This document shows, in pieces, positions 1,105-16,784 of a stretch of DNA of 24,000 bases (position 1 is the stretch's first letter; each line of letters begins with the position of its first letter). The notes under the pieces were generated by a model, which had not been told where the DNA came from, did no database searches, and was given only the letters and a program-made list of their open reading frames with translations. The DNA comes from Paracoccaceae bacterium (GTDB lineage Bacteria; Pseudomonadota; Alphaproteobacteria; Rhodobacterales; Rhodobacteraceae): NCBI GenBank assembly GCA_050043005.1, contig JBHJIZ010000069.1, positions 1 to 24,000 of the forward strand, read 5' to 3'. The position numbers were made by a program, and so were the translations under genes.

Positions 1105-1499
1105 ATGGGGCGGATAAGTCAGGAATGTCCGGAACTCCGAAACAATGTCATCCATCATTCGGCCCAGGGTTCTCAATACACGTCCGTAGCCTATGGGTTG
1201 AGGTGCAAGGAAGCACAGGTTCGGCCAAGCATGGGGTCGGTCGGCGATGCCTACGACAACGCCATGTGCGAGAGTTTCTTCGCCACGCTCGAATGCGAAC
1301 TGCTCCAGCGCCGGTCGTTCCGCACCAAGGCTGAGGCTCGCATGACGATCTTCACGTTCATCGAAGGATGGTACAATCCCGCCAGACGCCATTCGACGCT
1401 TGGCTACAAGTCACCGGTCGAATACAAAAGAACCAACCCCGGAGGGCTTCAAACTGTAAGCCTATAGCAGTCCACCAAACCGGGGGAACTCCCACTCCA
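1105..1499 (+). mobile_element. 5'-truncated IS3-family OrfB (DDE transposase) with its right terminal inverted repeat
   Basis: HHSAQGSQYTS...SMGSVGDAYDNAMCESFFATLECELL...EARMTIFTFIEGWYNPARRHSTLGYKSPVEY is the classic IS3 OrfB catalytic C-terminus, and the N-terminal two thirds are missing. After the stop (1465-1467), the sequence cagtccaccaaaccgggggaactcccactcCA ends in CA at about 1499, like an IS3 right IR (reverse complement TGgagtgggag...). Confidence 0.85.
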
Positions 1500-1596
1500 A
1501 AAGGCGATCATCGACCCGCGGCACGCCCCGCACCTTCGTTGGCAGCAACGGCTGCATGATCGCCCATTCTTCGTCGGTCAGTTCATGGCGCAGCAT
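1465..1596 (-). mobile_element. N-terminal stub of an IS5-family (DUF4096-type) transposase, cut off by the IS3 end
   Basis: From the ATG at 1596 (RBS GCAGGAGGTTTCA) the frame reads MLRHELTDEEWAIMQPLLPTKVRGVPRVDDR. This is the conserved N-terminus of IS5/IS427-group transposases. Similarity stops at the IS3 inverted repeat (about 1499). Confidence 0.7.
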
Positions 1597-1730
1597 TGAA
1601 ACCTCCTGCTCGGTTGCAGATGTGAAGAAGATAAACGCAGCGTCGCGAATCCCATCTATGGGCACAGAACGTAGAGAATGATACTTTTCGGCTGTCGCAG
1701 CGAGAGCGAATCGTAACCATCTAAAATCAT

Positions 1731-3002
1731 TCACAATAATTTTCGTTTGGGCTCTATGCTTACTGGGAAATCTTCGCCGATGCGATAAGATACAGGTCGC
1801 TCAGGATCAGAGAGATTTTCAAGAGCAAACTTCGCGACTCTGCGCTTGAATTCGTCATGATGAGATGCCCATCTAATATCTTCGGGAACGATAAATGCTT
1901 TGAGGCGCCGATTAGCGCGATCATTCGTTTGCCGGACAGCAACTCTAGCGACGCCAGGCGCTGTCCGGAGAACCTGCTCAACATAATTTGTAAAGACGTT
2001 CACACCGCCGATCTGTATTGCACTATCTTTACGACCCAGAACCTGAAAACTATCTTCACTAATACTTTTAATCTGATCCGGTGGCTCAATTACTCGACGA
2101 GTCAGCTGAGTAACCGGGATTGTATCACCAGACCGCTCGACCGGTCGCACATGCGGCAAGAATTCGAAGGGAGCGTCGGGCGCATCACGCAACCCGACCC
2201 CGAGCGTTTCGGTGGAGCCATACACCTCGACGAGGCGTCCAAGCCCACTTTGCTGCACTTGAGGCCAAAGCTCAGACGGCGCAGGCGCCGTAGAAGTCAC
2301 ACCGGTACACCCAGCCGGGATTGATGCCCCCGACTTCAGATGCAAACCCCAAGTGAAAGGGGTGCCGATGATCAAATCTCCTGCGTGGCCTTCACGTGCC
2401 AGCGCGCCCGGAGACTTTGAGGCAAGATCAAGCACCAGCCAATCATTGACAAGCGGCGACAAGACGGTGAACAGAAATCCATAGATGTGATGTGCTGGCA
2501 CCTGCGCAACCGCGCGCGAAACCTCCCCGAAGATTTGAGGATGAGTTGACACTTCCTCGACCAGGTCTTCTACGCTGTGCACTATCTGCTTTGGCACACC
2601 GGTAGAACCTGAGGTTTCGAAGACGATTTGCTCGGGCTCGGCATCTGGAAGCTGGCGGAACCCGTTCGCAATGATCTCGCACCACTCTCCAAGTTGGCGA
2701 TGAATTAACAAGTAATCCTCGACCCCGGTACGGTGTAGCAAAAATATTCGATTGATCGCGGCGACGAGTTCGAGCAGCGCAAGGCTGTCGACACCCATTT
2801 CATCGTCGTTGACGGCAGTCTTACTCGTCCAACTGTTAGTCTCGGCTACCGGAACGGCCTGTCCGCGAATCCGCCCGAGTTCGCGCGCCAGTAAAGCAGT
2901 AACTGGGCGGAAAAGGGCATTCTCGCGTCCCTTCAGAAGCATTCCTAGTCTCGGTTGCAACGGCGTGGGCACTTCATCACCCAATAGACGGGTCTCAATC
3001 AT
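1731..3002 (-). CDS. pcl: p-coumarate ligase-like adenylate-forming enzyme (ANL superfamily) with a carrier-protein-like N-terminal region
   Basis: 423 aa. ANL core motifs are present: ETSGSTGVPK (A3), EVYGSTETLG (A5), GRKDSAIQIGGVNV (A8). The short N-terminal part carries MGVDSLALLELV. The gene sits in a pyp/tal context, as for Rhodobacter pCL. RBS GAGG lies 5 nt before the ATG. Confidence 0.8.
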   Translation of the reverse strand: MIETRLLGDEVPTPLQPRLGMLLKGRENALFRPVTALLARELGRIRGQAVPVAETNSWTSKTAVNDDEMGVDSLALLELVAAINRIFLLHRTGVEDYLLIHRQLGEWCEIIANGFRQLPDAEPEQIVFETSGSTGVPKQIVHSVEDLVEEVSTHPQIFGEVSRAVAQVPAHHIYGFLFTVLSPLVNDWLVLDLASKSPGALAREGHAGDLIIGTPFTWGLHLKSGASIPAGCTGVTSTAPAPSELWPQVQQSGLGRLVEVYGSTETLGVGLRDAPDAPFEFLPHVRPVERSGDTIPVTQLTRRVIEPPDQIKSISEDSFQVLGRKDSAIQIGGVNVFTNYVEQVLRTAPGVARVAVRQTNDRANRRLKAFIVPEDIRWASHHDEFKRRVAKFALENLSDPERPVSYRIGEDFPVSIEPKRKLL

Positions 3003-3037
3003 AGCGCCTCAATGCTTCACGATTGGATCGAAAGAAG

Positions 3038-3060
3038 CCGGCGCGTACGCAGCGCGCCGG
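3038..3060 (-). terminator. GC-rich hairpin between the unknown paralogue and pcl (possible intrinsic terminator or attenuator)
   Basis: ccggcgcg (3038-3045) pairs with cgcgccgg (3053-3060) around a 7-nt loop. On the minus strand the hairpin is followed by CTTCTTTCGA. Confidence 0.4.
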
Positions 3061-3082
3061 GTTAGCTGTACGTCCTGAATGA

Positions 3083-3565
3083 TCAGTGGACATCAACTTC
3101 GTGAAGGATCTCGCCCAGAAGACCTGCGTACTGGTCACGCGCCGCCTTCGCTCTGGCCATTAGCGAATATCCCAAAGCCGCCAGTTCGACCGCGCTGAGG
3201 GAAGCGTCGTCTGCAAAGCTGTCGACCCGCATATCCGCTGCCGCATCATAGCTCTCGAGAGTCTCCATGACCTCGTCGAAAGAAGCGAACTCCCACGCTT
3301 TCGCGCGATCACGAGCATTCTCGTCGGCGAAGAAGATTTTCACTGCGGCTACAAAGGTCTGATTAGCTGTCCGATAGATGTTAATTTCGAACCAATACGG
3401 GGCGCCAGGGATGAAGTTCATGGCCATGCAGAGCTCGGTTCCGTCAAAGATCAACGGTCGTTGCCCAGTGCGCATGATTTTGTACTGCATTGGCGGCATG
3501 GTCATCGGAATGGAGTCATTCTCCATCGTGGTGTCCTGCATTTCAAATGGAGACATCTGATTCAT
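3083..3565 (-). CDS. Unknown protein, paralogue P1 of a three-member family in this window
   Basis: The ORF track entry is 3083-3610. I prefer the ATG at 3565 (MNQMSPF...), which has GGGAAG 7 nt upstream and lies just after the P2 stop. It shares three colinear sequence blocks with P2 (3582-4202) and P3 (10642-11082). No known domain recognised. Confidence 0.6.
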   Translation of the reverse strand: MNQMSPFEMQDTTMENDSIPMTMPPMQYKIMRTGQRPLIFDGTELCMAMNFIPGAPYWFEINIYRTANQTFVAAVKIFFADENARDRAKAWEFASFDEVMETLESYDAAADMRVDSFADDASLSAVELAALGYSLMARAKAARDQYAGLLGEILHEVDVH

Positions 3566-3581
3566 GTGAGAACTTCCCGTA

Positions 3582-4202
3582 TCATGAGTGAAGATGGATG
3601 GGCCCAGCACCCAGCGCAGCAGTCAGGAGCCGGCTGAAGTCCAAGCGCAGAGATGCTAGCATCTCGTTGTGTGAGCTAGCAGAAGAGACGGTGTCGAAGG
3701 CCAGCCATGACCAACCTTCAGCGGGTTCGTAGCGTGCAATAAACTGATCAAGATCAGCTGCCGACGATAGGGCTGCTACTTTGTGCAACGGACACGCGGT
3801 GACGCCGTCGGGTACGAGCATTGCTATCCTCGCATAAACCTTACCAGCCGAGGTAAGATAGATCGAGAATTCCTGACGAATTGGCACGGATCCGCTGCTC
3901 ACCAAGGTGTCGATCGATCGATCCACCAACAGTATTCCCTCGAACACTATTGGCCGTTTGCCGTCGCAGCGTAGCCGATAACGAGTATAGGCACCTGACA
4001 ACAGGTTGGTTCCATCATCGACCACGTCTGCCTGAGCAGACAGAAGCATTACCTCATCTGAATTCGGCGTAGCTGGCACAAACGGAATGCGGGAGAGCGC
4101 GTGGGCAACAGGAGCACCCGATGGGTGCCCCCCCCGCCGTGCCCGGAACAAAACGCGCAGATCGTCGTGGATGAACACGCTGCTAGACTGTTGTCCGGTC
4201 AT
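3582..4202 (-). CDS. Unknown protein, paralogue P2, immediately downstream of pyp
   Basis: 206-aa ORF, 44 nt after the pyp stop. The core YRLRCDGKRPIVFEG ... EFSIYLTSAGKVYARIAML ... HKVAALSSAADLDQFI parallels P1 (YKIMRTGQRPLIFDG ... FEINIYRTANQTFVAAVKI ...). Confidence 0.6.
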   Translation of the reverse strand: MTGQQSSSVFIHDDLRVLFRARRGGHPSGAPVAHALSRIPFVPATPNSDEVMLLSAQADVVDDGTNLLSGAYTRYRLRCDGKRPIVFEGILLVDRSIDTLVSSGSVPIRQEFSIYLTSAGKVYARIAMLVPDGVTACPLHKVAALSSAADLDQFIARYEPAEGWSWLAFDTVSSASSHNEMLASLRLDFSRLLTAALGAGPIHLHS

Positions 4203-4246
4203 TTCTCTGAACCCACCCGAAAGTGTTGATCGTCAGGTCACTTAAT

Positions 4247-4618
4247 TCAAGTGCGCTTGACGAATATCCAACAGTTGCCATCATTTGATGCTTTTAAGTG
4301 GATTCTTACTTTGACATTGGCACCCTTGTAAGCAAACTGATAGTCAAACAGCGTGTTGACCTGGCCCGTCTTCGCGAACTTGATGAACTCGCTATGGAAC
4401 CGTTTGCCCTTCGCGCAGGGCGCGATGTCGTTGAAGAAGTTCTTGCCCATCACGCTGGAAGGATCTCGACCAGCAATAAGACCTTCAGCCTTGTTGTACT
4501 TCAGGATTTTGCCGGTGCGATCGACCATGACGGCACCGAAGGGAAGATATTCTGCGCGTCGCGGCTCGGCCTGCAGAATATTGTCGATATCGTTCGTACC
4601 AAAAGGAATGACGTCCAT
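4247..4618 (-). CDS. pyp: Photoactive yellow protein (PAS-fold p-coumaric acid photoreceptor)
   Basis: 123 aa, collinear from memory with Halorhodospira and Rhodobacter PYPs: IPFGTNDIDNIL, PFGAV, YNKAEGLIAGRDP (equivalents of Tyr42, Glu46, Arg52), GKNFFNDIAPC (chromophore Cys codon at 4415-4417) and a WIFVKR C-terminus. RBS GAGGA lies 9 nt upstream. Confidence 0.95.
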   Translation of the reverse strand: MDVIPFGTNDIDNILQAEPRRAEYLPFGAVMVDRTGKILKYNKAEGLIAGRDPSSVMGKNFFNDIAPCAKGKRFHSEFIKFAKTGQVNTLFDYQFAYKGANVKVRIHLKASNDGNCWIFVKRT

Positions 4619-4641
4619 TTACCCAGTCCTCTACTTCGGAA

Positions 4642-5079
4642 TTAGTCGTTTGGAGCGCGATCGTAAGCGCCGTCCACGTTCTGTTGGAATGTATCGTTAC
4701 GGGTCGCCGATTGATCTATCAGGCGCTCCATACTGTTTCGGCTCGCAGGGTTATCGTCTGAGACCTCGCGACCCTCGGGCGCGATCCAGCGATAGTCCAT
4801 ATCGCCCATTGACACCACGCATTGCGGCATTCGCTCAAACCGCGATTGATGTTCGTCCTTCAGAATGTCGAGGTCGATTTCATCGGCCTCACCCATCTCC
4901 ATCAGGGCTTCAATCTCACTGATCTGACCTTCCATGTCAGCTTGATTGGCCTGAGTGATAATTTCTGTTGCCGCTTCGAGCACCCATTCAGCATGGGCGC
5001 CGCGAACGACCAGATTCAGCTCGTCAAAGCTGAATTCATACCGTCCATTCGCCTTCTTCAGGCGACCGATATCATCCAT
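4642..5079 (-). CDS. Acidic unknown protein (145 aa), first gene of the pyp operon
   Basis: The ORF track entry is 4642-5163. The ATG at 5079 (MDDIGRLKK...) has AGGAG 7 nt upstream, and the 28 codons before it look non-coding. The stop lies 23 nt before the pyp start. No domain recognised. Confidence 0.55.
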   Translation of the reverse strand: MDDIGRLKKANGRYEFSFDELNLVVRGAHAEWVLEAATEIITQANQADMEGQISEIEALMEMGEADEIDLDILKDEHQSRFERMPQCVVSMGDMDYRWIAPEGREVSDDNPASRNSMERLIDQSATRNDTFQQNVDGAYDRAPND

Positions 5080-5321
5080 TGCGCATCTCCTGTTGCCTAT
5101 GGGTCCTACCGAATCCGGAGCGCGAACCCACGCAAAGGGCTTTTGGCATATGCCCCTTAACAAACCTTCGCTGCAGTCATTCCAAACCAGTATTGAATTC
5201 TTAGACTTTGCTTAAATCTCCAAAAAAACTGTGCTCTCAGACGTCAGTTGATGTGCTGTTAACCAAGGCACCCGCAAACGTGGGTTTGAAACGAACTGAG
5301 CGGAGTGCGGGAGACCACTGA

Positions 5322-6905
5322 ATGCTCGAAAACACCGCGGGCTTTGCCGATCCAGGATCCGCTTCCAAGATCGTCGAGATCACCGGAACCCTATCGATTT
5401 CAGATTCCATAGCGGTTGCGGAAGGTCGTGCGGTACCGGTTCTTAGCTCTGACGCGTCCGAACGTATCGTGGCCGCGCACGGGAGGTTGCGAACCTGCGT
5501 GCGTCAGGCCCGTCTGGTTTATGGGGTTACGACGGGTTTCGGACCATTGGCGAACCGCCAGGTCGGCACGCACGACATTCAACTTCTGCAACGCAACCTA
5601 ATCTACCATCTAGCAACTGGGGTCGGAGACGTCGCGGACTGGGTGACGGCCAGGATGATCGTCGTAGCCCGGCTATCCTCTATCGCGCAGGGCGTATCAG
5701 GCGCTTCTCCCGAACTGGTCGCACGATTGCTTGGCTTGCTCGGCAGCCCGTACGCCCCGAGAATCCCGATGAAAGGCACTGTGGGAGCCAGCGGAGATCT
5801 CACGCCGTTGGCGCACATGGCCTTGGCGCTCCTCGGTGAAGGCAACTTTATTGACCGCGACGGAAGCGAGGTTTCGTCAGAGAAGGTTCTCGGGACCATT
5901 GGCGGGCCGTTCTCTCTGGAAAGTCGCGACGGTCTGGCATTGGTTAACGGCACGTCGGTCATGACGGCATTGGCCGTGTTGGACGTACGCAGAGCTGAGC
6001 GGTTGATCGAGATGGCCGAACGCTTGACCGTGGGTATGGCAGAGATCCTGAACGGTCGAGCCGAGGCTTGGCATGACGCATTCGCGCGACATCGCCCCCA
6101 TCCGGGACAAGTCGAGACAGCCAAAAGGTTGCGCTTGTTTGCGAAGGGGTCGGCCATGTTGGTCGAGGCATTGGCGGCAGAAACGCTGTTAAACCCGGCT
6201 TTGGCAGCGCAAGTGGTCGAGCGCCCCTTACAGGACGCGTACACGTTGCGGTGTGCGCCACAAGTGATCGGCGCCGCGCGGGACATGCTGGCAACTCATT
6301 TGGAAACAACCCAGCGCGAGTTGAATAGCGCGACGGACAATCCACTGTTCCCAGAGGATGCTCCGGCATTGCACGGTGGGAACTTCATGGGGCAGCATAT
6401 CGGCTTTGCGTCGGACCTGCTGTCAAATGCGACTCTAACCCTTGCCGCCTTCGCGGAGCGGCAAATCGCACGTCTGACGGACGAGCGTCTGAATGAGGGT
6501 CTGCCCGCATTCCTGCATCAGGGAAGCTGCGGCTTGAACAGCGGTTTGATGGGCGCACAGGTCACAGCGACCGCCATTCTGGCCGAAATGCGCTCTCGTT
6601 CTGTTCCTGCATCAATGTTGTCGATCTCCACCAACGGGGCCAATCAGGATCATGTCTCGATGGGGACGATTGCCGCGCGCAACGCTCGAGACCACCTCAA
6701 GGATTTCTCAATGGTGCTGTCGATACTGGGTCTTGCCGTGGCGCAGGGTATCGATTGTCGGGGACAGTCGAACAGGTTCGCTTCGGCTACGCTGGACCTG
6801 TACCGCTTCGTCAGAGATCATAGCGAGACGCTGACTGAAGACCGCCCTCTCTCGCCTGACATTCTGAGGCTGGCCGATGCGATACTCAACACCGATCCAT
6901 TCTGA
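5322..6905 (+). CDS. tal: Tyrosine ammonia-lyase (HAL/PAL/TAL family, MIO cofactor)
   Basis: 527 aa with GVTTGFG, the MIO-forming GASGDL (Ala-Ser-Gly at 5787-5795), LVNGT and NQDHVSMG. The substrate-selectivity position reads YHL (His codon 5607-5609), which is the His-Leu switch described for Rhodobacter TAL. The gene is divergent from the pyp operon. Confidence 0.9.
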   Translation: MLENTAGFADPGSASKIVEITGTLSISDSIAVAEGRAVPVLSSDASERIVAAHGRLRTCVRQARLVYGVTTGFGPLANRQVGTHDIQLLQRNLIYHLATGVGDVADWVTARMIVVARLSSIAQGVSGASPELVARLLGLLGSPYAPRIPMKGTVGASGDLTPLAHMALALLGEGNFIDRDGSEVSSEKVLGTIGGPFSLESRDGLALVNGTSVMTALAVLDVRRAERLIEMAERLTVGMAEILNGRAEAWHDAFARHRPHPGQVETAKRLRLFAKGSAMLVEALAAETLLNPALAAQVVERPLQDAYTLRCAPQVIGAARDMLATHLETTQRELNSATDNPLFPEDAPALHGGNFMGQHIGFASDLLSNATLTLAAFAERQIARLTDERLNEGLPAFLHQGSCGLNSGLMGAQVTATAILAEMRSRSVPASMLSISTNGANQDHVSMGTIAARNARDHLKDFSMVLSILGLAVAQGIDCRGQSNRFASATLDLYRFVRDHSETLTEDRPLSPDILRLADAILNTDPF

Positions 6906-6994
6906 TTCATTGAAGATCATCACGTAGATAAGGAACGCCGCCAATAACTCTTTCTTAAGAAACTGGCTCGAACTCCTGATATGCGTTATCGTAC

Positions 6995-7013
6995 CTCCCG
7001 TGAGAAACGGGAG
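6995..7013 (+). terminator. Small hairpin downstream of tal (weak terminator candidate)
   Basis: ctcccgt (6995-7001) pairs with acgggag (7007-7013) around a 5-nt loop, followed by TATCTTAAAT. The stem is short and the U-tract poor. Confidence 0.25.
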
Positions 7014-7215
7014 TATCTTAAATGGACACAGTGCAGGGTTGTGGGGCAGTACGTTTAATCGTCGAAAATGATGGCAAGATTGAGCTTTCGTATCATTTTG
7101 GAACGCTGAATGAGGCGATGGAAATATTCGACTTCATTCGTGATTTCTTTCCCAATGCTAGATACGTCATCGAACCAGCGCTTCACTAAAGCCACAGCAT
7201 AGAACCGCCGGGTCC

Positions 7216-9516
7216 TCAGACTGCCGTGCGTGGTTCTTCGGACTCTGAAGGCATCGTGAAGTCCTCTGCGGTTTCGGAACTTGATTGTGCTTCGGCTTCC
7301 CATTGCGCCAGCATCGCTTCGATATCGTCATCTGCTGGCGTCTCTGTGTCGTTCGAGTCCGGATCGTTTGAGGACAAGTCACCTTCCAAGCCGCCGGGAT
7401 CCTGTTCGCCAAAGCTGTCGTCGGCAGGAGGCGACTCAGGATCTTCGACCGCCCATTCGGTAGAAAACTGGTGCGCGTCATTCTCCTTGGACGGAACTTC
7501 ACCGTGTGTCGTGATGTCTTCGATCGCGGATGCGTCGACAGTGAAGTGCGCCATCGATGCACTCATTTCCTGAGTGAGGACGGACATTTGTTCTACGCCC
7601 TTCGACAAACGTTCACCGCCTTGAGACAGTTCTGCAACCACGCTCTGCAGCTCAAACAGTGAAGAGTTCGTATCTTCAGTCTGTGCGGATTGCGCAGCAA
7701 TACTATACGAAATCTGCTGAATCAGGCTGGCAGATTCGGTGATCATCTGAACCATCCGATCAAGCTGAGCACTCGCCGATTGAGCCTGGTTCGCCGTCTT
7801 GGCCGAGAGTTGCTCTATCTCTGCTGCGGCGAACATCGAGCGATCGGCAAGCTTGCGGACTTCCTGAGCGACAACCGCAAAGCCACGACCATGCTCGCCC
7901 GCTCTCGCCGCCTCGATCGAGGCATTCAAGGCCAGAAGGTCAGTTTGGCGAGATATCTCCTGCACGACTGTAACTCTTTGAAGAATCTCCTGGATCGCGC
8001 TCACGGCGTCCTTGACGATTTTCCCACATTCCTGAGCTTGGCTTGCAGCTTCGCTGGCACGCGACTCCGTCGTTGCGGCCTGATCCGCGCTAGCGTTCAG
8101 TTCCTCGCTGATCGTGTTCAGTGACGCGACGGCGGTATCCATCGCGGCGGCTTGAGAACGCATCGAACTGAAGAAGGTCTGAGAGAATGCGCCCAGGTTG
8201 CCGGAAAGATCCGTCAATTGCTCCAGCGTGACACGACCATCGCCAACGACCCGTTGCAGCGTCCTGGTCATGTCCTCGAATGACTGTCCGAGCGCATCCC
8301 TCTCCGAAACAGTTTCGATACTGATCCGCAAATCGCCAGCGGCGACTTGTCCGGCCAGCCGGGACATGGCTACGAACGACAGCCTGAGAAACCCGACTGT
8401 GTCAAGGATACGGCCAAACTCGTCTTTCCGGTCGGACCCGCACACAGGTATGTCCGTGCCGCCCTGCAAACATAGGTCCAATGCCTCGGTGGTGGCTTTC
8501 ATACCCGAAGCAAACCGACGCATCGCCAGAATGGCAAGAAGCAGAACCAGCAAGATTGAGAGCGCGGCAATCGTCGCACCAACCGAAGCGCTGAAGTCAG
8601 CACTGCTAACCATAGCGTCGACCCGGGCCCGCGTAGCAGCGCGGTGTTCTATGATTGCAGTGTGAAACGCATCAATCGGTTGAGCTGTATCCGCAAACCA
8701 TTCGGCAACTGTGACCGACCTTCCCGGATCGCGCGCCGATAAGTCGGTGATCGCTTGGGACATCCCACCTAGCCAGTCGGCTCGAAGATCTCTGAGCGCA
8801 ATTGCGTCGGCTGAATGAACACGGTCCCGGCGGATGGTATCAAGTTCGTCCATCGTGAACCGAACGTTGTCACGTACACTCTCAAAGAGTTGAGATGCGA
8901 TCCGTACTGATACGCCTGATTTGTCTTCCGATGCGTTTTGTACCACCAATCCACCGACAGTCCGGAGCTGCCCAATTTGATCCTTGGCACGTTCCAAGAG
9001 CGCCAAGCCCATCAAATCGCGTCCCAGTTCCGACCCACTTGCGAAGTGTTGCGCTGCCGCTATCTGGCCGATCAAACCGTGAATGATCGATGTGTACTCA
9101 CTGCGAACGTAGATGCCGTCTGCGGGCGTTCCATCCAACGCGCCACGTAGCTTCGAGAGCCGCGAAACAATGGTCTTGATTGCCTCCGCGTGTTTCGTTG
9201 CTTCGCCCTCTTCAACGGGACCTTTTGCAAGGAGTTCGTTGATGGCGACGTCAACCGCACCGCGTTGCGAACGCAGCTCCTGCCTGCTGGGCCGGTCATC
9301 AGTGGAGATCAAAACCAGGTGCGCGAGGCTTCGTTCCTTCTGTAGTTCATGTATCAGGCTGGAAGCATTGGCATTGATCTGGAGCGCTTCACTCAGTTTG
9401 CCCAGAACTGCGCGATCCGCCATCGAGTTCGACGTGACGTAAGCCGCCAAGGCCAACATCATCAAGAATGGCACAATGATCGCGGCCCCGATCAGCGCTT
9501 TTAATGACCTATGCAT
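7216..9516 (-). CDS. Methyl-accepting chemotaxis protein with a NIT-like periplasmic sensor, HAMP domain and acidic C-terminal tail
   Basis: I prefer the start at 9516 (MHRSLKAL; RBS GAGGGGAG) over the track start at 9543. There are two TM segments. The sensor region contains [12 protein letters not shown]..., typical of nitrate/nitrite-sensing (NIT) domains; this call is tentative. The canonical MCP hairpin tip [38 protein letters not shown] is present. The last ~110 aa are Asp/Glu/Ser-rich. Confidence 0.9.
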
Positions 9517-9610
9517 GATTGCGCTCCCCTCACAGTGGCGCATCTCATAGAACAGATCTTCTTAAAAAGGGCTAACGAACCAGTCTATTTCAGGCACTTA
9601 TCTAAAATTA

Positions 9611-9638
9611 TTGAAGTTTCTATAGTGTTTTATATTTA
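9611..9638 (+). promoter_or_regulatory. Candidate sigma70-type promoter for the gas vesicle operon
   Basis: TTGAAG (9611-9616), 16 nt spacer, TATTTA (9633-9638), inside the AT-rich 224-nt divergent intergenic region about 130 nt upstream of the 9768 start. Pattern match only. Confidence 0.3.
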
Positions 9639-9767
9639 ACGAGACCTTGATGGGATACTTGAATGGGTAGCTCTGATGCGTCGCCTCAATAATTTATCCA
9701 AAAATCCTCGCAACAGCGTAACCGGAAATTTAACCAAGTATTCAAGTACAACAGGCTACGGAGCGAT

Positions 9768-10613
9768 ATGCTCCTGTCAATAGCTCTAGCCATAACGATC
9801 GCAGCTGGCATAGCGCTCGGCGTTCAGTTTCGACGGCGTTTGGTTGCCGTCTGTGTAAGACTTGAACGTCTCGAGGCGAACGGAGAGCACGACGCCACCA
9901 CACGGGCAGAAGACAGAGAGACGCAAACCCTTCGCGTTGAAGAGATTCTCTCTTCTCTTGCGACGCGTATTCGCACCGCCGAGCAAGGTTGGACGGAGCG
10001 GATCGAAGTTCTTGAGAACACAATCTCTGCGCGCCTGATCAATATGGATGCCATCCGTGAGGACTCCGAAGATCGCCGCGATCAGACCCTAATCGACAGC
10101 CGGTTGCAGGAATTTGAAAGGCGGATCACCGAAATCGCGCAACAGTTGGATGCGCTCTCGATCCAGATAAATAACGTCCCACGAAGCGGAGTCTTTGAAG
10201 ACCTGGAACAGAAATTGAACGAGGTCTCAGCCCGGTTTGATGGTGCCGAAGCAAGTTTGACGCAATATCGATCGATTGAAGATCATATCGCCACGTTGCA
10301 ATCCAAAATCTCGGAAATCGAGACAACGGCTGCCTCCCATGCATCAGCGCAAGCTGATCTGAGGACTGATGTGCAGCGGGAGAAGTCCAGTCTCAGCTCC
10401 CGAGTAGATGCCTTTGAAAGAGAGCTCCGACAATTCGCGGAGCGACTGCAAGGACAAACCGAAACCAGCGGTTTGGCATCTCAGCCAGCGACCGCGCCGC
10501 ACAAATCGACTGAAAAAGCAGGACGTATCGGCGACGTGTCTGACACGCGCGCCGCCAGCTTGGACAACACGATCGCATTGCCGGATCGCGTCGTCACAAT
10601 CCTAAACTCATGA
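9768..10613 (+). CDS. Membrane-anchored coiled-coil protein, first gene of the gvp operon
   Basis: 281 aa, RBS GGAG 5 nt upstream. The N-terminal hydrophobic segment LLSIALAITIAAGIALGV is followed by long heptad-like helical sequence rich in E/R/Q/L. No known family recognised. Confidence 0.6.
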   Translation: MLLSIALAITIAAGIALGVQFRRRLVAVCVRLERLEANGEHDATTRAEDRETQTLRVEEILSSLATRIRTAEQGWTERIEVLENTISARLINMDAIREDSEDRRDQTLIDSRLQEFERRITEIAQQLDALSIQINNVPRSGVFEDLEQKLNEVSARFDGAEASLTQYRSIEDHIATLQSKISEIETTAASHASAQADLRTDVQREKSSLSSRVDAFERELRQFAERLQGQTETSGLASQPATAPHKSTEKAGRIGDVSDTRAASLDNTIALPDRVVTILNS

Positions 10614-10641
10614 CCGATGCGCCAACCTTCGGAGGAAACAA

Positions 10642-11082
10642 ATGACTGAAATCAATCGCGATAAGATGACTGGGACGGACTGCAGCATCGTCGCTATTGG
10701 TAGGACGGGAACGGCTCCGCTACGCTTCAAAGGCATGCGGCAAGTCGCACGCCGTTACGAGACTGATTTTTTGCAAGCCAACTTAGCGCTATGGCGTTGT
10801 GCGACGGGCGGCTACGTTGCTCATCTCGAGCTGATGGAGGCCGGTCAGAGGCAAAGCCACGCGCACCGCGTTGGAACTGTTTCCGAAGCGTTATCCTTCT
10901 TCGCATCCCTGCGCTCGAGCATGCCGGATGTGCCTGAACCGCAGCCGGGAAAGAAAAAACGTCAGTCGATTGATGCGGTTGCGAAGGTTCTCCTGAAGCG
11001 ATCGCGAACCCTGAGCGCGCGGGACGCCTTGGAACAATTGATCGAAGATTTCTCGGACACCCTCATTGTAGGGGCGCTTTGA
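10642..11082 (+). CDS. Unknown protein, paralogue P3 of the P1/P2 family
   Basis: 146 aa, RBS GGAGG 6 nt upstream. The blocks GTAPLRFKG ... ANLALWRCATGGYVAHLEL ... HRVGTVSEALSFF are collinear with P1 and P2. Confidence 0.6.
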   Translation: MTEINRDKMTGTDCSIVAIGRTGTAPLRFKGMRQVARRYETDFLQANLALWRCATGGYVAHLELMEAGQRQSHAHRVGTVSEALSFFASLRSSMPDVPEPQPGKKKRQSIDAVAKVLLKRSRTLSARDALEQLIEDFSDTLIVGAL

Positions 11083-11187
11083 TCGCCATCACCGTTATCA
11101 AACGGATCCGCGCGGGCGAGTTTAGATATCGCTAACGAACTGCCGATACACCCAAGGTTGGCTCCTGTTAGAATTGCGAGGAACGCC

Positions 11188-12219
11188 ATGCCGAGAAAAG
11201 CGCATGCACCTGCCCGATCCAAGCCCGCTGCCTCGGCAAAGGGTGGCGTGGAAACGCCCGCTGCGGAAACTTCCACCGCAGAGAGAACGCCGCCAAGCCT
11301 GGCTGACGATGGACTCGACCTTTACGAAGATAGCGAAATCTCGTCGCTGCGCAGCCGGGCACATCTTTACTTGAGCCTCGGCATACCAGTGCACTTTCGC
11401 GGCCGTGCCGGGATGGGCAAAACAACACTCGCCCAAAGGGTCGCTCAAGAAGCTGGCCGCCCGGTCTCGATGATAACCGGCGATCACGCGCTCGTAGCGG
11501 CTGACTTGGTCGGCCGCGAGATCGGCTATGATTCTCAGCGGGTGCGCGATCGCTACGTACACTCTGTCAGCCGGTCAGAAGAGAAAGTCCGTGCCGTTTG
11601 GGCCGACGGCGTACTGACCAAGGCGATGCTGGAGGTCCATACGCTCATTTATGATGAGTTCACCCGCACGCCACCCGAGACAAACAACGTATTGCTTTCA
11701 GCACTTGAAGAACGGGTGCTCTATCTGAACCGCCCGTTGCGCGAGAGCGCGCAAGTGCGGGCGCATCCCTCGTTCAAGGTGATCTTCACCTCTAATCCGG
11801 ATGAGTATTCTGGCGTCAAAGCGGCTCCCGATGCACTTTTCGACCGCATGGTTTCGGTCGATGTCTCGCTCTGCAGCCCGGAGACTGAGGCGGGCATTGT
11901 TGCTTTCCGGACCGGCATTGGTCAGCCGGAGGCGACGGGGATCGTGACCCTGCTTCGCGCGATCCGGGACAAGCTTCCGGCGGCCAACCCACCCTCGATC
12001 CGTACCGCGATCATGATCGGCAAGATCGTCCGGACACTGGGCATGGCAACCAGCGCAAGTGATGAGCGGTTTGTTCAAGTCTGTTTGGATGTGTTGGAGT
12101 CGCGTTGTCCGAGCGACACAAACCGCGCCGAACGGGATCGTTATCTTGACGGATTGCGAAAAGAAATCCTGCGAACCGGTAGCAAACCCCGGACCGCAAA
12201 ACAGGAGGCGGCTGCGTGA
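11188..12219 (+). CDS. gvpN: Gas vesicle protein GvpN (MoxR/CbbQ-like AAA+ ATPase)
   Basis: Walker A GRAGMGKTT and Walker B LIYDEFTR are present, along with NVLLSALEE and FKVIFTSNP..Y.G...A.DAL.DR, as in GvpN. I prefer the ATG at 11188 (GAGGA 6 nt upstream) over the TTG at 11158 in the track. There is an Ala/Pro/Lys-rich N-terminal extension of ~60 aa. Confidence 0.9.
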   Translation: MPRKAHAPARSKPAASAKGGVETPAAETSTAERTPPSLADDGLDLYEDSEISSLRSRAHLYLSLGIPVHFRGRAGMGKTTLAQRVAQEAGRPVSMITGDHALVAADLVGREIGYDSQRVRDRYVHSVSRSEEKVRAVWADGVLTKAMLEVHTLIYDEFTRTPPETNNVLLSALEERVLYLNRPLRESAQVRAHPSFKVIFTSNPDEYSGVKAAPDALFDRMVSVDVSLCSPETEAGIVAFRTGIGQPEATGIVTLLRAIRDKLPAANPPSIRTAIMIGKIVRTLGMATSASDERFVQVCLDVLESRCPSDTNRAERDRYLDGLRKEILRTGSKPRTAKQEAAA

Positions 12220-12461: not shown

Positions 12462-12751
12462 CGACCGCGGATCGCAGCAAGAAGACATCGCCGCTGGGCG
12501 TCTCGCAGGTCATCGCGATCGCGCGCGACAATGTTGCTTTGTTTGCTGACATGCAGGTTGACCAAATCGTCTCGTGCAAGCGCTCGGGCGAGGATTGGCA
12601 AGTCGAGGTCGATCTGATCGAGGCACGTGCGAGGCTTGGCGACAATGACCTGATCGCAACATTCTCCATGACCGTCTCGCCAGATGGCAGTGTCCTCGGG
12701 ATCGAGCGATTGCGACGGTACACGCGGGACGATCTGAGGGCGACCGGCTGA
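12458..12751 (+). CDS. gvpO: Gas vesicle protein GvpO
   Basis: SQVIAIARDNVALFADMQVDQIVSCKRSGEDWQVEVDLIEARARLGDNDLIATFSMTVSPDGSVLGIERLRRYTR fits the GvpO pattern (..W.V.VE..E..R.P...D....Y.V.....G......R..RY.R). The ATG at 12458 is preceded by GGGAG. Confidence 0.8.
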   Translation: MTTADRSKKTSPLGVSQVIAIARDNVALFADMQVDQIVSCKRSGEDWQVEVDLIEARARLGDNDLIATFSMTVSPDGSVLGIERLRRYTRDDLRATG

Positions 12752-13065
12752 TGGGCAGCGATATTCAAAGTTCGATCCAATCCGATGGGCTGGCCGACAT
12801 CCTGGAACGGATCATCGACAAGGGCGTGGTGATCGCGGGCGATGTCACGGTTTCTCTCGTCGGGATTGAGCTGCTCTCGATAAAGCTGCGTTTGCTGATT
12901 GCCAGCGTCGATAAAGCAAAGGAACTCGGGATCAATTGGTGGGAGCATGATCCGATGTTGACGGCGCGCCCCGCCGCGGCCCTTGACGGTCCCGACATGA
13001 CCCGCTCCGAGATCCTCGAGCGAATCGCCGAGCTGGAAAAACAACTCGCGAGTTCGAACGCGTGA
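12751..13065 (+). CDS. gvpJ: Gas vesicle protein GvpJ (GvpA/J/M family)
   Basis: [51 protein letters not shown] is the hallmark GvpJ core. The ATG overlaps the gvpO stop by 1 nt (TGATG). Confidence 0.85.
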   Translation: MGSDIQSSIQSDGLADILERIIDKGVVIAGDVTVSLVGIELLSIKLRLLIASVDKAKELGINWWEHDPMLTARPAAALDGPDMTRSEILERIAELEKQLASSNA

Positions 13066-14684: not shown

Positions 14685-16784
14685 ATGCCGGTTGCCGCTG
14701 AGTACCCGTCGCTCAAAGTCCAGGCGGTCGACGCACCCGATGCCCATCACAATCTTGCTCGCATGACGTCAGGGGCGCTGCGCCGTATGGGGCTACGTGC
14801 TGGGTCGACCATTGCCGTTCACGGTGATCGAGTAAGCTATGCCCGGGTACTTCCCGGTCGCTCGGGCGCGCTGACCGAGACCGACATTGCCTTACCAGAG
14901 CTGGTGATCAGCAACTGCGGGGCAGGCATAGGACAGTCGATCCGGATTGAGCCGGTCGAGTTGCCGATCTTAGACAGCGTCAACATCGAAGTCGAAGATG
15001 GTCGCCCATTCCGCCACAATGAGTCGAAGTCCGGCTTGCTTGACCAACCGATCCGGATCGGCGATCGCGCGCTGCTCGTTCTGCCGACCAAAGAAGTTCG
15101 CTCCATCCGAATTCGCGATTGCGCTCCGGTCGAGGCGGGCTTGATCGGCCATCAGACCGATGTCGAGATCCTGGAAACCAAGCAGCCGCGAGCTTATCCG
15201 ACGGTCGGAGGGCTTTCGGCACAGATTGCGCGTGTTCGCGAGATGGTGGAGTTGCCGATCCGTCAGCCTGAGCTGTTCGCGCACCTCGGGATCGTCCCTC
15301 CGCGTGGCATCCTGTTCACCGGCCCGCCCGGCAGTGGCAAAACCCTGCTCGCCCGTGCTGTGGCTGAGCAAACCGACGCGCACTTCTACCACATCAACGC
15401 GCCCGAGATCGTCTCGAAGCATTATGGCGACTCAGAGAAGAAACTGCGCGACGTTTTCCAGGAAGCCGAGCGCAATGCGCCATCAGTGATCTTTATCGAC
15501 GAAATCGATGCAATTGCTCCCAAACGCGACAGCGTCTCTGGTGAAAAGCAGCTTGAGAAACGTGTGGTTGCGCAACTCCTGACGCTGATGGATGGACTGT
15601 CGGACCGTGGACAGGTTGTCCTGATGGCGGCGACGAACCTGCCGCACATGCTTGATCCCGCCCTGCGTCGACCTGGTCGCTTCGACCGCGAGGTGCCGTT
15701 CACCGCCCCGGATCGCGAAGCCCGTCAGGAAATTCTCTCGGTTCATACTGCAATGATGCCGCTGGCGGACGGCCTGGATCTGGCATCTGTCGCCGCCAAG
15801 ACCGATGGATTTGTCGGTGCGGATCTCGCCGCTGTAGCGCGGGAAGCTGCGATGGCGACGCTCCGGCGTTCGGGCGCCTTGGAGAGGTCAGTGGATGTTA
15901 CCCGACTTCAGGTCACACCCAATGATTTTACCGCCGCGCTCGCTGCCACGGGGCCGAGTGCGCTGCGCGAGACGCAGGTTCAAACGCCCGAAACCGCCTG
16001 GGCAGACGTTGGTGGCTTGGATGATACCAAGCAGATGCTCACCGAGGCCATCCTTTGGCCACTCAATCAACCACAACTTGCGCAGCAGCTCGGTCTTTCA
16101 CCAGTCTCGGGAGTGCTTCTGCATGGACCACCCGGTAGCGGCAAGACGCTCCTGGCGCGTGCACTGGCGTCAGAGAGCGGGCTGAACTTCATTCCAGTGC
16201 GCGGCGCACGGATTTTATCTCAGTATCTCGGCGAAGCCGAACGGATGATTGCCGAACTGTTTGCCCGGGCGCGCCATGCAGCGCCCTGCCTTATGTTCTT
16301 CGACGAGATCGACTCTCTGGCACCCAGCCGGGTAGCAGGGGACACGAACATCGCGCGCGTCGTTGCGCAATTGCTGATCGAGATTGATGGCATAGAAGGG
16401 CGAGGCGGGACGATCTTACTTGGTGCCACCAACCGGATTGAAGCAATCGATCCAGCCTTGTTGAGACCCGGCCGTTTCGATCTGACCGTCGAGATTGTGC
16501 ATCCCGACGCAACGGCCCGGACCAAGATTTTGGACGTTCACTGCCGCGGTAAGCCGCTGGCGGATGATGTGGACTTAAGTGCGTTGGCCGATGCATCCGA
16601 GGGTTGGAGTGGGGCCGAACTCGCCGCTCTTTGCCAGGGTGCCGCACGGCAGGCACTTCGGCGCACACTGCTTGCCGAGGTAGATGCTACCACGCCGAAC
16701 ATTACCTGTGCGGACTTCGATCGAGCCTTCGCGGAGCGGGTCGAAAGTGATGCGATCAGAAAGGGACCCAATCAATGCCTGTAG
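14685..16784 (+). CDS. CDC48/VCP/VAT-like ATPase with an N-domain and two AAA+ modules
   Basis: 699 aa. The N-terminal part looks like a CDC48_N barrel. D1 has GPPGSGKTLLARAVA and VIFIDEIDA, with pore loop SKHYGDSE. D2 has GPPGSGKTLLARALA and LMFFDEIDS, with pore loop SQYLGEAE. PALLRPGRFD-type second-region-of-homology motifs occur in both modules. Confidence 0.9.
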   Translation: MPVAAEYPSLKVQAVDAPDAHHNLARMTSGALRRMGLRAGSTIAVHGDRVSYARVLPGRSGALTETDIALPELVISNCGAGIGQSIRIEPVELPILDSVNIEVEDGRPFRHNESKSGLLDQPIRIGDRALLVLPTKEVRSIRIRDCAPVEAGLIGHQTDVEILETKQPRAYPTVGGLSAQIARVREMVELPIRQPELFAHLGIVPPRGILFTGPPGSGKTLLARAVAEQTDAHFYHINAPEIVSKHYGDSEKKLRDVFQEAERNAPSVIFIDEIDAIAPKRDSVSGEKQLEKRVVAQLLTLMDGLSDRGQVVLMAATNLPHMLDPALRRPGRFDREVPFTAPDREARQEILSVHTAMMPLADGLDLASVAAKTDGFVGADLAAVAREAAMATLRRSGALERSVDVTRLQVTPNDFTAALAATGPSALRETQVQTPETAWADVGGLDDTKQMLTEAILWPLNQPQLAQQLGLSPVSGVLLHGPPGSGKTLLARALASESGLNFIPVRGARILSQYLGEAERMIAELFARARHAAPCLMFFDEIDSLAPSRVAGDTNIARVVAQLLIEIDGIEGRGGTILLGATNRIEAIDPALLRPGRFDLTVEIVHPDATARTKILDVHCRGKPLADDVDLSALADASEGWSGAELAALCQGAARQALRRTLLAEVDATTPNITCADFDRAFAERVESDAIRKGPNQCL

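What the first reader, a model, noticed from the sequence alone, without database searches (positions are those of the whole stretch)
3083..4202. Two tandem paralogous unknown genes sit inside the pyp operon, between pyp and pcl: candidate PYP partners
P2 (3582-4202) starts 44 nt after pyp, and P1 (3083-3565) starts 14 nt after the P2 stop (the P2 stop codon ends at 3582, the P1 ATG is at 3565). They share three collinear blocks. Block 1: Y(K/R)(I/L)(M/R)..G(Q/K)RP(L/I)(I/V)F(D/E)G. Block 2: a strand-like segment, FEINIYRTANQTFVAAVKI versus EFSIYLTSAGKVYARIAML. Block 3: a helical C-terminal region. I recognise no domain family. The downstream signalling partner of PYP has never been identified in any organism, so small proteins translated from the same mRNA as pyp are prime candidates.
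Basis: partly seen in the sequence, partly recalled or inferred. Interest (0 to 1): 0.8.

Follow-up and report, generated by a model that had tools for sequence, protein, structure and literature searches.

The report
Paralog trio linking PYP, gas vesicles
The two unknown genes between pyp and pcl are real paralogs, and a third copy sits next to gvpN. They belong to an undescribed protein family that travels with gas-vesicle gene clusters, with or without the blue-light sensor PYP, so they are testable candidates for how light controls buoyancy but not universal PYP partners.

Summary
P2 (3582-4202, -) and P1 (3083-3565, -) are real, tightly linked genes between pyp and pcl. They are paralogs: BLASTP E 3e-4, profile-profile E 1e-6 and 2.8e-14, and the same AlphaFold topology. 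A third paralog, P3 (10642-11082, +), lies just upstream of gvpN.

The family has no Pfam, NCBIfam, PHROG or PDB relative. The only trace is a sub-threshold link from one distant member to the EXLDI family. It has 271 representatives among 1.8 billion proteins.

In 83 loci carrying the main clade, members usually come as three paralogs. Among the well-flanked loci they always lie next to gvp genes and/or pcl. I found four layouts:
- orfX-pyp-P2-P1-pcl-(P3)-gvpN-gvpA, as in this window. By gene order and size this is also the layout in Rhodobacter capsulatus and Yangia pacifica.
- P-pyp-P-P-gvpA.
- P-P-P-gvpA, with no pyp or pcl.
- mcp-P-P-P with a pcl-like gene and gvp genes.

The pyp operons of Halorhodospira, Idiomarina and Halomonas have no such genes. 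P2 and P1 are translationally coupled, and natural P2-P1 fusions exist.

Best reading: a hetero-oligomeric module specific to gas-vesicle clusters, onto which PYP is grafted in some lineages. It is plausibly the link from PYP to buoyancy. This is inferred, not shown.

The parts
3083..3565 (-). P1: 160 aa, acidic (pI 4.4). It is the best-conserved member of the new family (motifs RxGxRPLxFxG, WFEINIYR, LExYDA, C-terminal GEILHE).
   Evidence: ORF and start. 14 close homologues at 49-98% identity. 271 family representatives. AF2 model with pLDDT 80. pI.
3582..4202 (-). P2: 206 aa paralog. The N-terminal ~70 residues are disordered and carry a short conserved helix motif (HDDLRxLFR). The family core spans residues 70-200. 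It evolves fast.
   Evidence: Paralogy. AF2 model. In other loci the P2 stop is typically overlapped by or lies within 26 nt of the P1 start.
10642..11082 (+). P3: 146 aa, basic (pI 9.6). Third paralog of the same family, immediately upstream of gvpN.
   Evidence: hhalign against the family profile gives 95.7% probability and E 9e-9. Family HMM E 1e-22. Conserved between pcl and gvpN in related loci.
4247..4618 (-). pyp: photoactive yellow protein, 123 aa, unusually basic (pI 9.6).
   Evidence: TIGR02373 E 3e-50, above cut-off. 71% identical to R. capsulatus PYP. pI.
4642..5079 (-). orfX: 145 aa, very acidic (pI 4.25). First gene of the pyp unit. Conserved upstream of pyp in all window-like loci. 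Not a member of the P family.
   Evidence: tblastn hits in L001-L018 and many scan loci. No family relation. No Pfam, NCBIfam or PHROG hit.
1731..3002 (-). pcl: 4-coumarate-CoA ligase, for PYP chromophore activation.
   Evidence: TIGR02372 E 1e-92, at 310 bits and slightly below the 334.7 cut-off. Also matches PF00501.
3038..3060 (-). GC-rich hairpin (8 G-C pairs) followed by CTTCTTT, between the P1 stop and the pcl start. Possible terminator or attenuator.
   Evidence: Consensus scan only. Not conserved in position, because the P1-pcl gap is only 8 nt in L001.
5322..6905 (+). tal: aromatic amino-acid (tyrosine) ammonia-lyase, divergent from the pyp unit.
   Evidence: PF00221 E 1e-140. The same divergent position is seen in L005, L009-L011.
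7216..9543 (-). Methyl-accepting chemotaxis protein (NIT sensor domain plus MCP signalling domain).
   Evidence: PF08376 and PF00015. MCP genes recur next to these clusters, and in L019-L021 one directly precedes the paralogs.
11158..12219 (+). gvpN-type AAA ATPase, first recognisable gas-vesicle gene.
   Evidence: PF07728 E 6.5e-17. Orthologues lie next to GvpO and GvpA in L001-L018.
12751..13065 (+). gvpA-type gas vesicle structural protein.
   Evidence: PF00741 E 1e-16.
1105..1734 (.). Two IS remnants: an rve_3 integrase core fragment at 1105-1467 (+) and a DUF4096 IS4/5 transposase N-terminus at 1462-1734 (-). They lie directly distal to pcl, where the other loci continue into the gvp cluster.
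   Evidence: PF13683 E 7e-15 and PF13340 E 4e-4, the latter below cut-off. Layout comparison.

Best explanation
P1, P2 and P3 are three paralogs of an undescribed small alpha/beta protein family. The family forms a module specific to a subset of bacterial gas-vesicle (gvp) gene clusters.

The paralogs most likely assemble into a hetero-oligomer. P2 and P1 are made from coupled reading frames, and in some bacteria they are a single polypeptide. I propose that the module acts at the head of the gvp cluster as a regulatory or gating factor for gas-vesicle formation. It is not a core structural protein.

In the Rhodobacter-type clusters the photoreceptor gene pyp, with its chromophore genes pcl and tal, has been placed directly in front of P2-P1. 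In this subtype the trio is therefore the most probable point where the blue-light signal from the basic PYP enters the buoyancy pathway. The likeliest route is direct binding to the acidic P1/P2 complex and/or orfX.

**Shown:** paralogy, common predicted fold, gene coupling, natural fusions, three copies per cluster, and strict association with gvp and/or pcl.

**Inferred:** complex formation, a regulatory rather than structural role, and any contact with PYP.
For: **Paralogy and fold:**

**Coupling and fusions**
- The gap from the P2 stop to the P1 start has a median of -1 nt. It overlaps in 15 of 28 loci and never exceeds 26 nt.
- Two independent natural P2-linker-P1 fusion proteins exist, P0020 and P0022. 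Each has two family domains.

**Copy number:** usually three paralogs per cluster, in 27 of 40 loci of at least 5 kb.

**Association with gvp and pcl**
- All 21 main-clade loci with at least 2 kb on both sides carry gvp genes and/or pcl (Pfam annotation of L020 and L021).
- Ten of the 83 main-clade loci show neither pyp, pcl nor gvp. All ten are truncated within about 850 bp downstream of the paralogs.
- The paralogs lie immediately 5' of gvpA or gvpN, on the same strand, in all layouts.

**Links to light sensing**
- pyp sits directly upstream of a divergent paralog followed by a P1-type paralog in two distinct layouts.
- In L024 and L037 a ferredoxin-dependent bilin reductase (PF05996, E 2e-24) sits inside the paralog array instead. 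Chromophore and photoreceptor genes have thus been recruited repeatedly to this module.

**Charge:** PYP is basic (+6.7) here, while P1 (-13) and orfX (-19) are strongly acidic.

**Not a core gvp protein:** the family matches no Pfam or NCBIfam Gvp model.

**Cultured hosts:** the same operon appears in R. capsulatus (hypothetical 142 aa, PYP 124, 219, 163, 4CL 384) and Yangia pacifica. It also occurs in Rubrimonas cliftonensis DSM 15345 (locus L014).
Against: - No experiment or complex prediction links these proteins to PYP or to gas vesicles. Everything rests on gene neighbourhood.
- Many clusters have the trio without pyp, so a PYP-independent function must exist.
- The fold has no significant solved relative. 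The best Foldseek E-values are 0.013 and 0.037, to levivirus coat proteins and Pur-alpha. This gives no support for a regulatory mechanism over a structural one.
- P1 is strongly acidic, which argues against direct DNA binding.
- In this window the pyp block is inverted away from the gvp cluster and flanked by IS remnants. A terminator-like hairpin follows P1.
- The metagenome sample was drawn with a motif pattern and is not unbiased.
- Orthology between the positions in the different layouts could not be resolved. Between-cluster identities are all 17-27%.
Confidence: 0.5

Rival explanations
1. The trio are accessory assembly or structural proteins of the gas vesicle itself, for example lineage-specific nucleation or chaperone factors for GvpA. 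They have no direct contact with PYP. PYP would control the cluster through other partners such as the MCP, orfX or a transcription factor elsewhere.
For: - The paralogs always lie next to gvpA or gvpN and on the same strand.
- They are present in gvp clusters without any photoreceptor gene in the available flank.
- Tight stoichiometric coupling is typical of complex subunits.
- The C-terminal amphipathic helix and beta-sheet architecture are compatible with a scaffold.
Against: - No match to any Pfam or NCBIfam gas-vesicle protein model, although it sits among genes that do match them.
- From my own knowledge, not tested here: the well-studied gas-vesicle clusters of Anabaena, Bacillus megaterium, Halobacterium and Serratia contain no protein of this description. 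It cannot then be generally required for assembly.
- Insertion of pyp or a bilin reductase inside the paralog array is easier to explain if the paralogs take part in signalling.
Confidence: 0.27
2. P2 and P1 help make holo-PYP. They would be chaperones or adaptors that present apo-PYP or p-coumaroyl-CoA to pCL during chromophore attachment, which would explain their position between pyp and pcl.
For: - They lie between pyp and pcl in every window-like locus.
- In one contig (L081) P1 and pcl form a single open reading frame.
- L019-L021 keep the paralogs next to a pcl-like ligase even without pyp nearby.
Against: - Fifteen loci have the paralogs with gvpA but without pyp or pcl in the DNA held.
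- P3 sits with gvpN.
- pyp-pcl operons of H. halophila, Idiomarina, Halomonas and Salinisphaera lack them.
- According to PMC12826048, TAL and pCL are the activities that yield holo-PYP.
- The only cysteine conserved in close P1 homologues (C46) is alanine in most of the family.
Confidence: 0.07
3. They are generic members of a mobile-element-associated small-protein superfamily (EXLDI-like). They have no specific relation to PYP or gas vesicles and are neighbours by chance or hitch-hiking.
For: - A distant member (P0168) hits TIGR04342 EXLDI at E 3.5e-4.
- Fourteen low-scoring single-copy relatives have no gvp or pyp neighbours. By reading their neighbouring ORFs only, with no Pfam check, two of them look as if they sit in integrase/HTH-like surroundings.
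- One phage protein is a structural match at E 3e-4.
Against: - The main clade is sharply separated by score, at 115 bits or more against 66-86 bits.
- Every adequately flanked locus of the main clade is associated with gvp and/or pcl, across several layouts and habitats.
- Synteny is conserved down to 43% P1 identity.
Confidence: 0.03

Closest known systems
Unnamed hypothetical genes in the Rhodobacter capsulatus pyp operon (RCAP_rcc01066 region) and the Yangia pacifica CEW88_08595 operon, as tabulated in the supplement of Dohmen et al. 2025 (PMC12826048)
   Same: - Gene order and sizes match. R. capsulatus has hypothetical 142 aa, PYP 124, 219 aa, 163 aa, 4-coumarate-CoA ligase 384. Yangia has 144, PYP 124, 209, 134, 4CL 389, then gvpN and the gvp genes.
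- The window PYP is 71% identical to R. capsulatus PYP.
   Different: - The sequences of those hypothetical proteins were not available to me. Orthology is inferred from order and size only.
- The paper does not discuss them, their paralogy or gas vesicles in its main text.
EXLDI protein family (NCBIfam TIGR04342), function unknown
   Same: Small proteins of similar size. One distant family member (P0168) matches the N-terminal beta-hairpin region of the model at E 3.5e-4.
   Different: - P1, P2 and P3 give no hit even at E up to 1.
- The match is below the curated cut-off (20.9 against 32 bits).
- The C-termini of P1 (EILHEVDVH) and P2 (GPIHLHS) carry no EXLDI motif.
- The genomic context (gvp and pyp) is different.
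Accessory and regulatory genes of gas-vesicle clusters (GvpF/L, GvpG, GvpK, GvpO, GvpN; regulators such as haloarchaeal GvpD/GvpE or Serratia GvrA/B/C). The regulators are named from my own knowledge.
   Same: They are encoded inside or at the 5' edge of gvp clusters, and several small proteins are co-expressed.
   Different: - No sequence relation to any Pfam or NCBIfam Gvp model.
- Present in only a subset of bacterial clusters.
- Organised as three paralogs.
- Often interleaved with photoreceptor or chromophore genes.
Leviviridae coat proteins and Pur-alpha (Whirly-like) repeats
   Same: The topology is alike: an antiparallel beta-meander followed by C-terminal helices. These are the top Foldseek hits for both the P1 and the P2 model.
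   Different: The matches are not significant (E 0.013-0.08, TM 0.2-0.3 on the query, rmsd up to 14 A). This is a shape resemblance only, with no evidence of nucleic-acid binding.

Membership tests
One common family for P1, P2 and P3 | Significant sequence or profile similarity over the whole core | tested here: met
   - BLASTP E 3e-4.
- hhalign E 1.1e-6, E 2.8e-14 and E 9e-9 for P3.
- Family HMM: P1 3e-62, P2 1e-20, P3 1e-22.
One common family for P1, P2 and P3 | Same predicted fold | tested here: met
   AF2 models of P1 and P2 both give beta1-5 meander, two short helices and a long C-terminal helix. P3 was not modelled.
EXLDI protein (TIGR04342) | HMM score at or above the curated cut-off (32 bits) | tested here: not met
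   No hit for P1 or P2 at E up to 1. Only the distant relative P0168 reaches 20.9 bits.
EXLDI protein (TIGR04342) | C-terminal EXLDI motif (as I recall the family definition) | tested here: not met
   P1 ends ...GEILHEVDVH and P2 ends ...GAGPIHLHS.
Known gas-vesicle protein families (Pfam Gas_vesicle, GvpL_GvpF, GvpG, GvpK, GvpO; NCBIfam gvp models) | Match to a family model | tested here: not met
   Zero Pfam and NCBIfam families for P1 and P2 at E up to 1. The neighbouring genes do match.
Known gas-vesicle protein families | Encoded within or adjacent to a gvp cluster | tested here: met
Known gas-vesicle protein families | Required for, or physically part of, gas vesicles | not testable with these tools
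   Needs deletion mutants or proteomics of purified vesicles.
Direct signalling partner of PYP | Co-operonic with pyp | tested here: met
   pyp lies immediately upstream of P2-P1 in the window and in all window-like loci, and inside the paralog array in the second layout. pyp was detected in 44 of the 83 main-clade loci.
Direct signalling partner of PYP | Phylogenetic profile follows pyp | tested here: not met
   - The trio occurs with gvpA but without pyp or pcl in 15 scan loci.
- pyp operons of H. halophila, Idiomarina, Halomonas and Salinisphaera have no such genes.
Direct signalling partner of PYP | Physical, light-dependent binding to PYP | not testable with these tools
No multimer tool is available.
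Leviviridae coat protein / Pur-alpha-like fold | Significant structural superposition | tested here: not met

The most novel reading that the evidence does not exclude
The P2-P1(-P3) complex is the long-missing direct effector of a single-domain PYP. Under this reading, the light-activated Rhodobacter-type PYP, which is basic here, binds the acidic P1/P2 hetero-oligomer, perhaps through the conserved N-terminal HDDLRxLFR helix of P2. That binding switches gas-vesicle formation on or off, giving a new photoreceptor-to-buoyancy pathway built from a protein fold with no characterised relative. Other lineages would plug different photoreceptors into the same output module, for example a bilin-based one next to the bilin reductase in L024 and L037.
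Probability: 0.3. Interest if true: 0.85.

Novelty: new variant of a known kind. Interest (0 to 1): 0.62.

Why it matters
PYP is one of the most intensively studied photoreceptors. The literature still calls the signalling chain of the single-domain protein an important gap (PMC12826048).

The link between pyp and gas-vesicle genes in R. capsulatus has been noted since 2004 (cited in PMC3646047). No molecular connection has been proposed in the papers I could search.

This work defines a conserved three-paralog family that sits exactly at the junction between pyp and gvp. It shows that the family is a property of the gas-vesicle cluster, with PYP as an optional input. It also finds that an operon of the same gene order and sizes is listed for R. 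capsulatus (sequences not compared). The question thus becomes a handful of deletion and pull-down experiments.

The family also deserves a name in the protein-family databases. It is a new accessory module to consider when gas-vesicle clusters are transplanted for imaging or biotechnology.

Tried and rejected
**Family and structure searches that found nothing**
- Pfam, NCBIfam and PHROGs scans of P1, P2, P3 and orfX gave no hits.
- A family profile against PDB sequences gave nothing below E 0.35.
- Foldseek against PDB for both models gave nothing significant.
- Foldseek against viral structures gave one unnamed phage protein at E 3e-4 and nothing informative.

**Sequence searches**
- tblastn of P1 and of a distant member against 72,556 plasmids found no match.
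I replaced it with a hand-made degenerate DNA pattern of two family motifs at fixed spacing. 75 of the 83 returned stretches were true members.
- The look-up of ten representatives gave no names or organisms.

**Complex modelling**
- An allowed unpaired alignment was unusable because MAFFT placed the P2 homologues on the P1 half.

**Hypotheses dropped**
- orfX as a fourth paralog: rejected (hhalign probability 0.1%).
- A conserved chromophore-binding cysteine in P1: rejected. C46 is invariant only among close homologues and is Ala elsewhere.
- PYP hidden in L019-L021: tblastn at E up to 0.01 found none within 8 kb.
- Assigning P2 and P3 to specific positions of the other layouts failed. All between-group identities are 17-27%.

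**Literature**
- Searches for EXLDI, for the R. capsulatus locus tags and for PYP plus gas vesicle found nothing on these proteins.
- Kyndt et al. 2004 is not held in the library.
Full report
**1. What is at the coordinates**

On the minus strand the window carries, in order:
- orfX (4642-5079)
- pyp (4247-4618)
- P2 (3582-4202)
- P1 (3083-3565)
- pcl (1731-3002)

tal is divergent at 5322-6905, an MCP gene lies at 7216-9543, and a gas-vesicle cluster starts at about 9768 on the plus strand. pyp matches TIGR02373 above its cut-off (E 3e-50). pcl matches TIGR02372 (E 1e-92, just under the cut-off). tal matches PF00221 (E 1e-140).

The gap from P2 to P1 is 16 nt, not 14. The P1 start at 3565 is fixed by the conserved N-termini of its homologues.

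A consensus scan finds a GC-rich hairpin followed by a T-rich tail at 3038-3060 (-), between P1 and pcl. In this genome pcl may therefore not be on the same transcript. The scan is not evidence of function.

**2. Are P1 and P2 paralogs?**

Yes. Profile-profile comparison of 15 P1 homologues with 7 P2 homologues gives 91% probability and E 1.1e-6 over 119 columns, including the C-terminal helix. The P2 alignment against a 126-sequence family profile gives 98.2% and E 2.8e-14.

The AlphaFold2 models agree. P1 has mean pLDDT 80 and P2 has a core above 90. Both show a five-stranded antiparallel beta-meander, two short helices and a long C-terminal helix. P1 adds about 24 disordered N-terminal residues. 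P2 adds about 70, containing a short conserved helix, HDDLRxLFR.

Two independent database proteins, P0020 (350 aa) and P0022 (300 aa), are natural P2-linker-P1 fusions with two family domains.

**3. A third paralog**

The ORF at 10642-11082 (+), immediately upstream of gvpN, belongs to the same family. hhalign gives 95.7% and E 9e-9, and the family HMM gives E 1e-22. It is conserved between pcl and gvpN in related loci. orfX is not a member.

**4. What the family is not**

P1, P2, P3 and orfX hit nothing in Pfam, NCBIfam or PHROGs. The family profile hits no PDB sequence. Foldseek finds no significant solved structure for either model. The best E-values are 0.013 and 0.037, to levivirus coat proteins and Pur-alpha, and this is a resemblance in shape only.

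**5. Size and distribution**

The word-indexed search finds only 14 close P1 and 4 close P2 homologues among 5.8 billion proteins. An exhaustive profile search finds 271 representatives at E up to 1e-3, of which 106 are at E up to 1e-10. All belong to tiny, unnamed clusters.

**6. Genomic context**

I examined four sets of loci:
- Seven contigs around P1 homologues.
- Eleven species genomes, including Rubrimonas cliftonensis DSM 15345 and Pikeienuella, Limibaculum and Paracoccaceae MAGs.
- Four contigs around distant members.
- 83 metagenome stretches recovered with a degenerate two-motif DNA pattern, of which 75 hold true members.

Scores are bimodal. Fourteen loci hold single-copy, low-scoring members (66-86 bits). 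They have no pyp, pcl, gvp, tal or mcp neighbour. By reading the neighbouring ORFs only, without a Pfam check, some of them appear to sit in mobile-element-like surroundings.

The other 83 loci hold main-clade members (115 bits or more), usually as three paralogs (27 of 40 loci of at least 5 kb). All 21 main-clade loci with at least 2 kb on both sides carry gvp genes and/or pcl. The ten loci with no such neighbour are all cut off within about 850 bp downstream of the paralogs.

Four layouts recur:
- **A:** orfX>pyp>P2>P1>pcl>(P3)>gvpN>gvpA. This is the window's type.
- **B:** pcl< P>pyp>P>P1-type>gvpA.
- **C:** P>P>P>gvpA with no pyp or pcl in the DNA held (15 scan loci). In L024 and L037 a ferredoxin-dependent bilin reductase sits inside the array (PF05996, E 2e-24).
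- **D:** mcp>P>P>P< with a pcl-like ligase and gvp genes, and no PYP within 8 kb.

The P2 stop and P1 start overlap or lie within 26 nt of each other in all 28 pairs measured. The median gap is -1 nt.

**7. Literature**

A 2025 survey of 984 PYPs and 113 predicted pyp operons names histidine kinases, MCPs and GGDEF/EAL proteins as candidate partners. Its main text never mentions gas vesicles or hypothetical proteins (PMC12826048).

Its supplementary table nevertheless lists the R. capsulatus operon as hypothetical 142 aa, PYP 124, 'conserved domain protein' 219, hypothetical 163 and 4-coumarate-CoA ligase 384. It lists a 20-gene Yangia pacifica operon with the same head followed by gvp genes.

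The same table shows pyp directly next to pcl in H. halophila, Idiomarina, Halomonas and Salinisphaera, with no intervening genes.

The proximity of pyp and gvp in R. capsulatus is known (Kyndt 2004, cited in PMC3646047). Gas-vesicle genes are CtrA- and RegA-controlled in Cereibacter and Rhodobacter. I found nothing on these proteins themselves.

**8. Interpretation**

The family tracks gas-vesicle clusters, not pyp. It exists with gvpA where no pyp is seen, and it is absent from pyp operons that are not gvp-linked.

Yet pyp, where present, is always placed directly against or inside the paralog array. A different chromophore enzyme occupies a similar place in other clusters.

The most economical reading has three parts. 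The trio is a hetero-oligomeric module, supported by coupling, fusions and three copies. It acts at the head of the gvp cluster. Photoreceptors have been attached to it repeatedly. For the Rhodobacter-type PYP this would be the route from light to buoyancy.

The charge pattern is compatible with direct binding but proves nothing. PYP is basic here (pI 9.6), P1 is acidic (pI 4.4) and orfX is acidic (pI 4.25).

I give this reading 0.5. A purely structural or assembly role without PYP contact gets 0.27. A role in PYP chromophore loading gets 0.07; it is contradicted by the pyp-less clusters and by P3. Chance association of an EXLDI-like mobile family gets 0.03.

**9. Verdict**

These are not general PYP partners, but they are the best available candidates for the link from PYP to gas vesicles.

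They define a new family. An operon of the same gene order and sizes is listed for R. capsulatus, a genetically tractable host; I could not compare those sequences. Function and any contact with PYP remain untested.

Noticed in passing
window 10642-11082 (+): Third paralog of the P1/P2 family (146 aa, basic), directly upstream of gvpN.
   Followed up: yes
window 4642-5079 (-): orfX: a very acidic 145-aa protein (pI 4.25) with no family hit. It is conserved as the first gene before pyp in all window-like loci, including by size in R. capsulatus (142 aa) and Yangia (144 aa). It is an equally plausible PYP partner and was not analysed structurally.
   Followed up: partly
window 1105-1734 and overall layout 1731-12219: The block mcp-tal-orfX-pyp-P2-P1-pcl is inverted relative to the gvp cluster when compared with L005, L010 and other loci. 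There pcl runs straight into P3-gvpN. Two IS remnants (rve_3 fragment, DUF4096 fragment) lie exactly at the pcl-distal end, which suggests an IS-mediated rearrangement.
   Followed up: partly
window 3038-3060 (-): Perfect 8-bp GC hairpin followed by CTTCTTT, between the P1 stop and the pcl start. It is terminator-like. It is not positionally conserved, because the P1-pcl gap is 8 nt in L001.
   Followed up: partly
L024:2048-2788 (-) and L037:2136-2882 (-): A ferredoxin-dependent bilin reductase gene (PF05996, E 2e-24) sits between the paralogs of a pyp-less P-P-P-gvpA cluster. This hints at a bilin-based photoreceptor input. No photoreceptor gene was visible in the short loci.
   Followed up: partly
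P0020, P0022 (database proteins); L081:1822-3552 (-): P0020 and P0022 are natural P2-linker-P1 fusion proteins. In L081, P1 and pcl form one open reading frame. That could be a real fusion, a lost stop codon or an assembly error.
   Followed up: partly
window 4247-4618 (-): This PYP is basic (pI 9.6, net +6.7). Its operon neighbours P1 and orfX are strongly acidic.
   Followed up: no
L019:420-1952, 4079-5653, 6106-7554; L020:5987-7429: In the distant layout an MCP gene ends right at the first paralog. In L019, a PAS-MCP and a PAS-histidine kinase-receiver flank tal, yet no PYP-like sequence is detectable. The photoreceptor that would use tal and pcl there is unidentified.
   Followed up: partly
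window 14685-16784 (+): A CDC48-like double-AAA ATPase (699 aa) is embedded between gvpF-type genes. It is conserved in many of the related clusters (52-66% identity).
   Followed up: no
window 9768-10613 (+) and 19667-21133 (+): Two coiled-coil-like proteins with only weak Pfam hits lie at the edge of and inside the gvp cluster. The first has no tblastn counterpart in the related loci.
   Followed up: no
window 1731-3002 (-): pcl scores 310 bits on TIGR02372, below the 334.7 cut-off. The pcl-like genes next to the paralogs in L019-L021 are only about 35% identical to it, so the substrate of this ligase subgroup is not certain.
   Followed up: no
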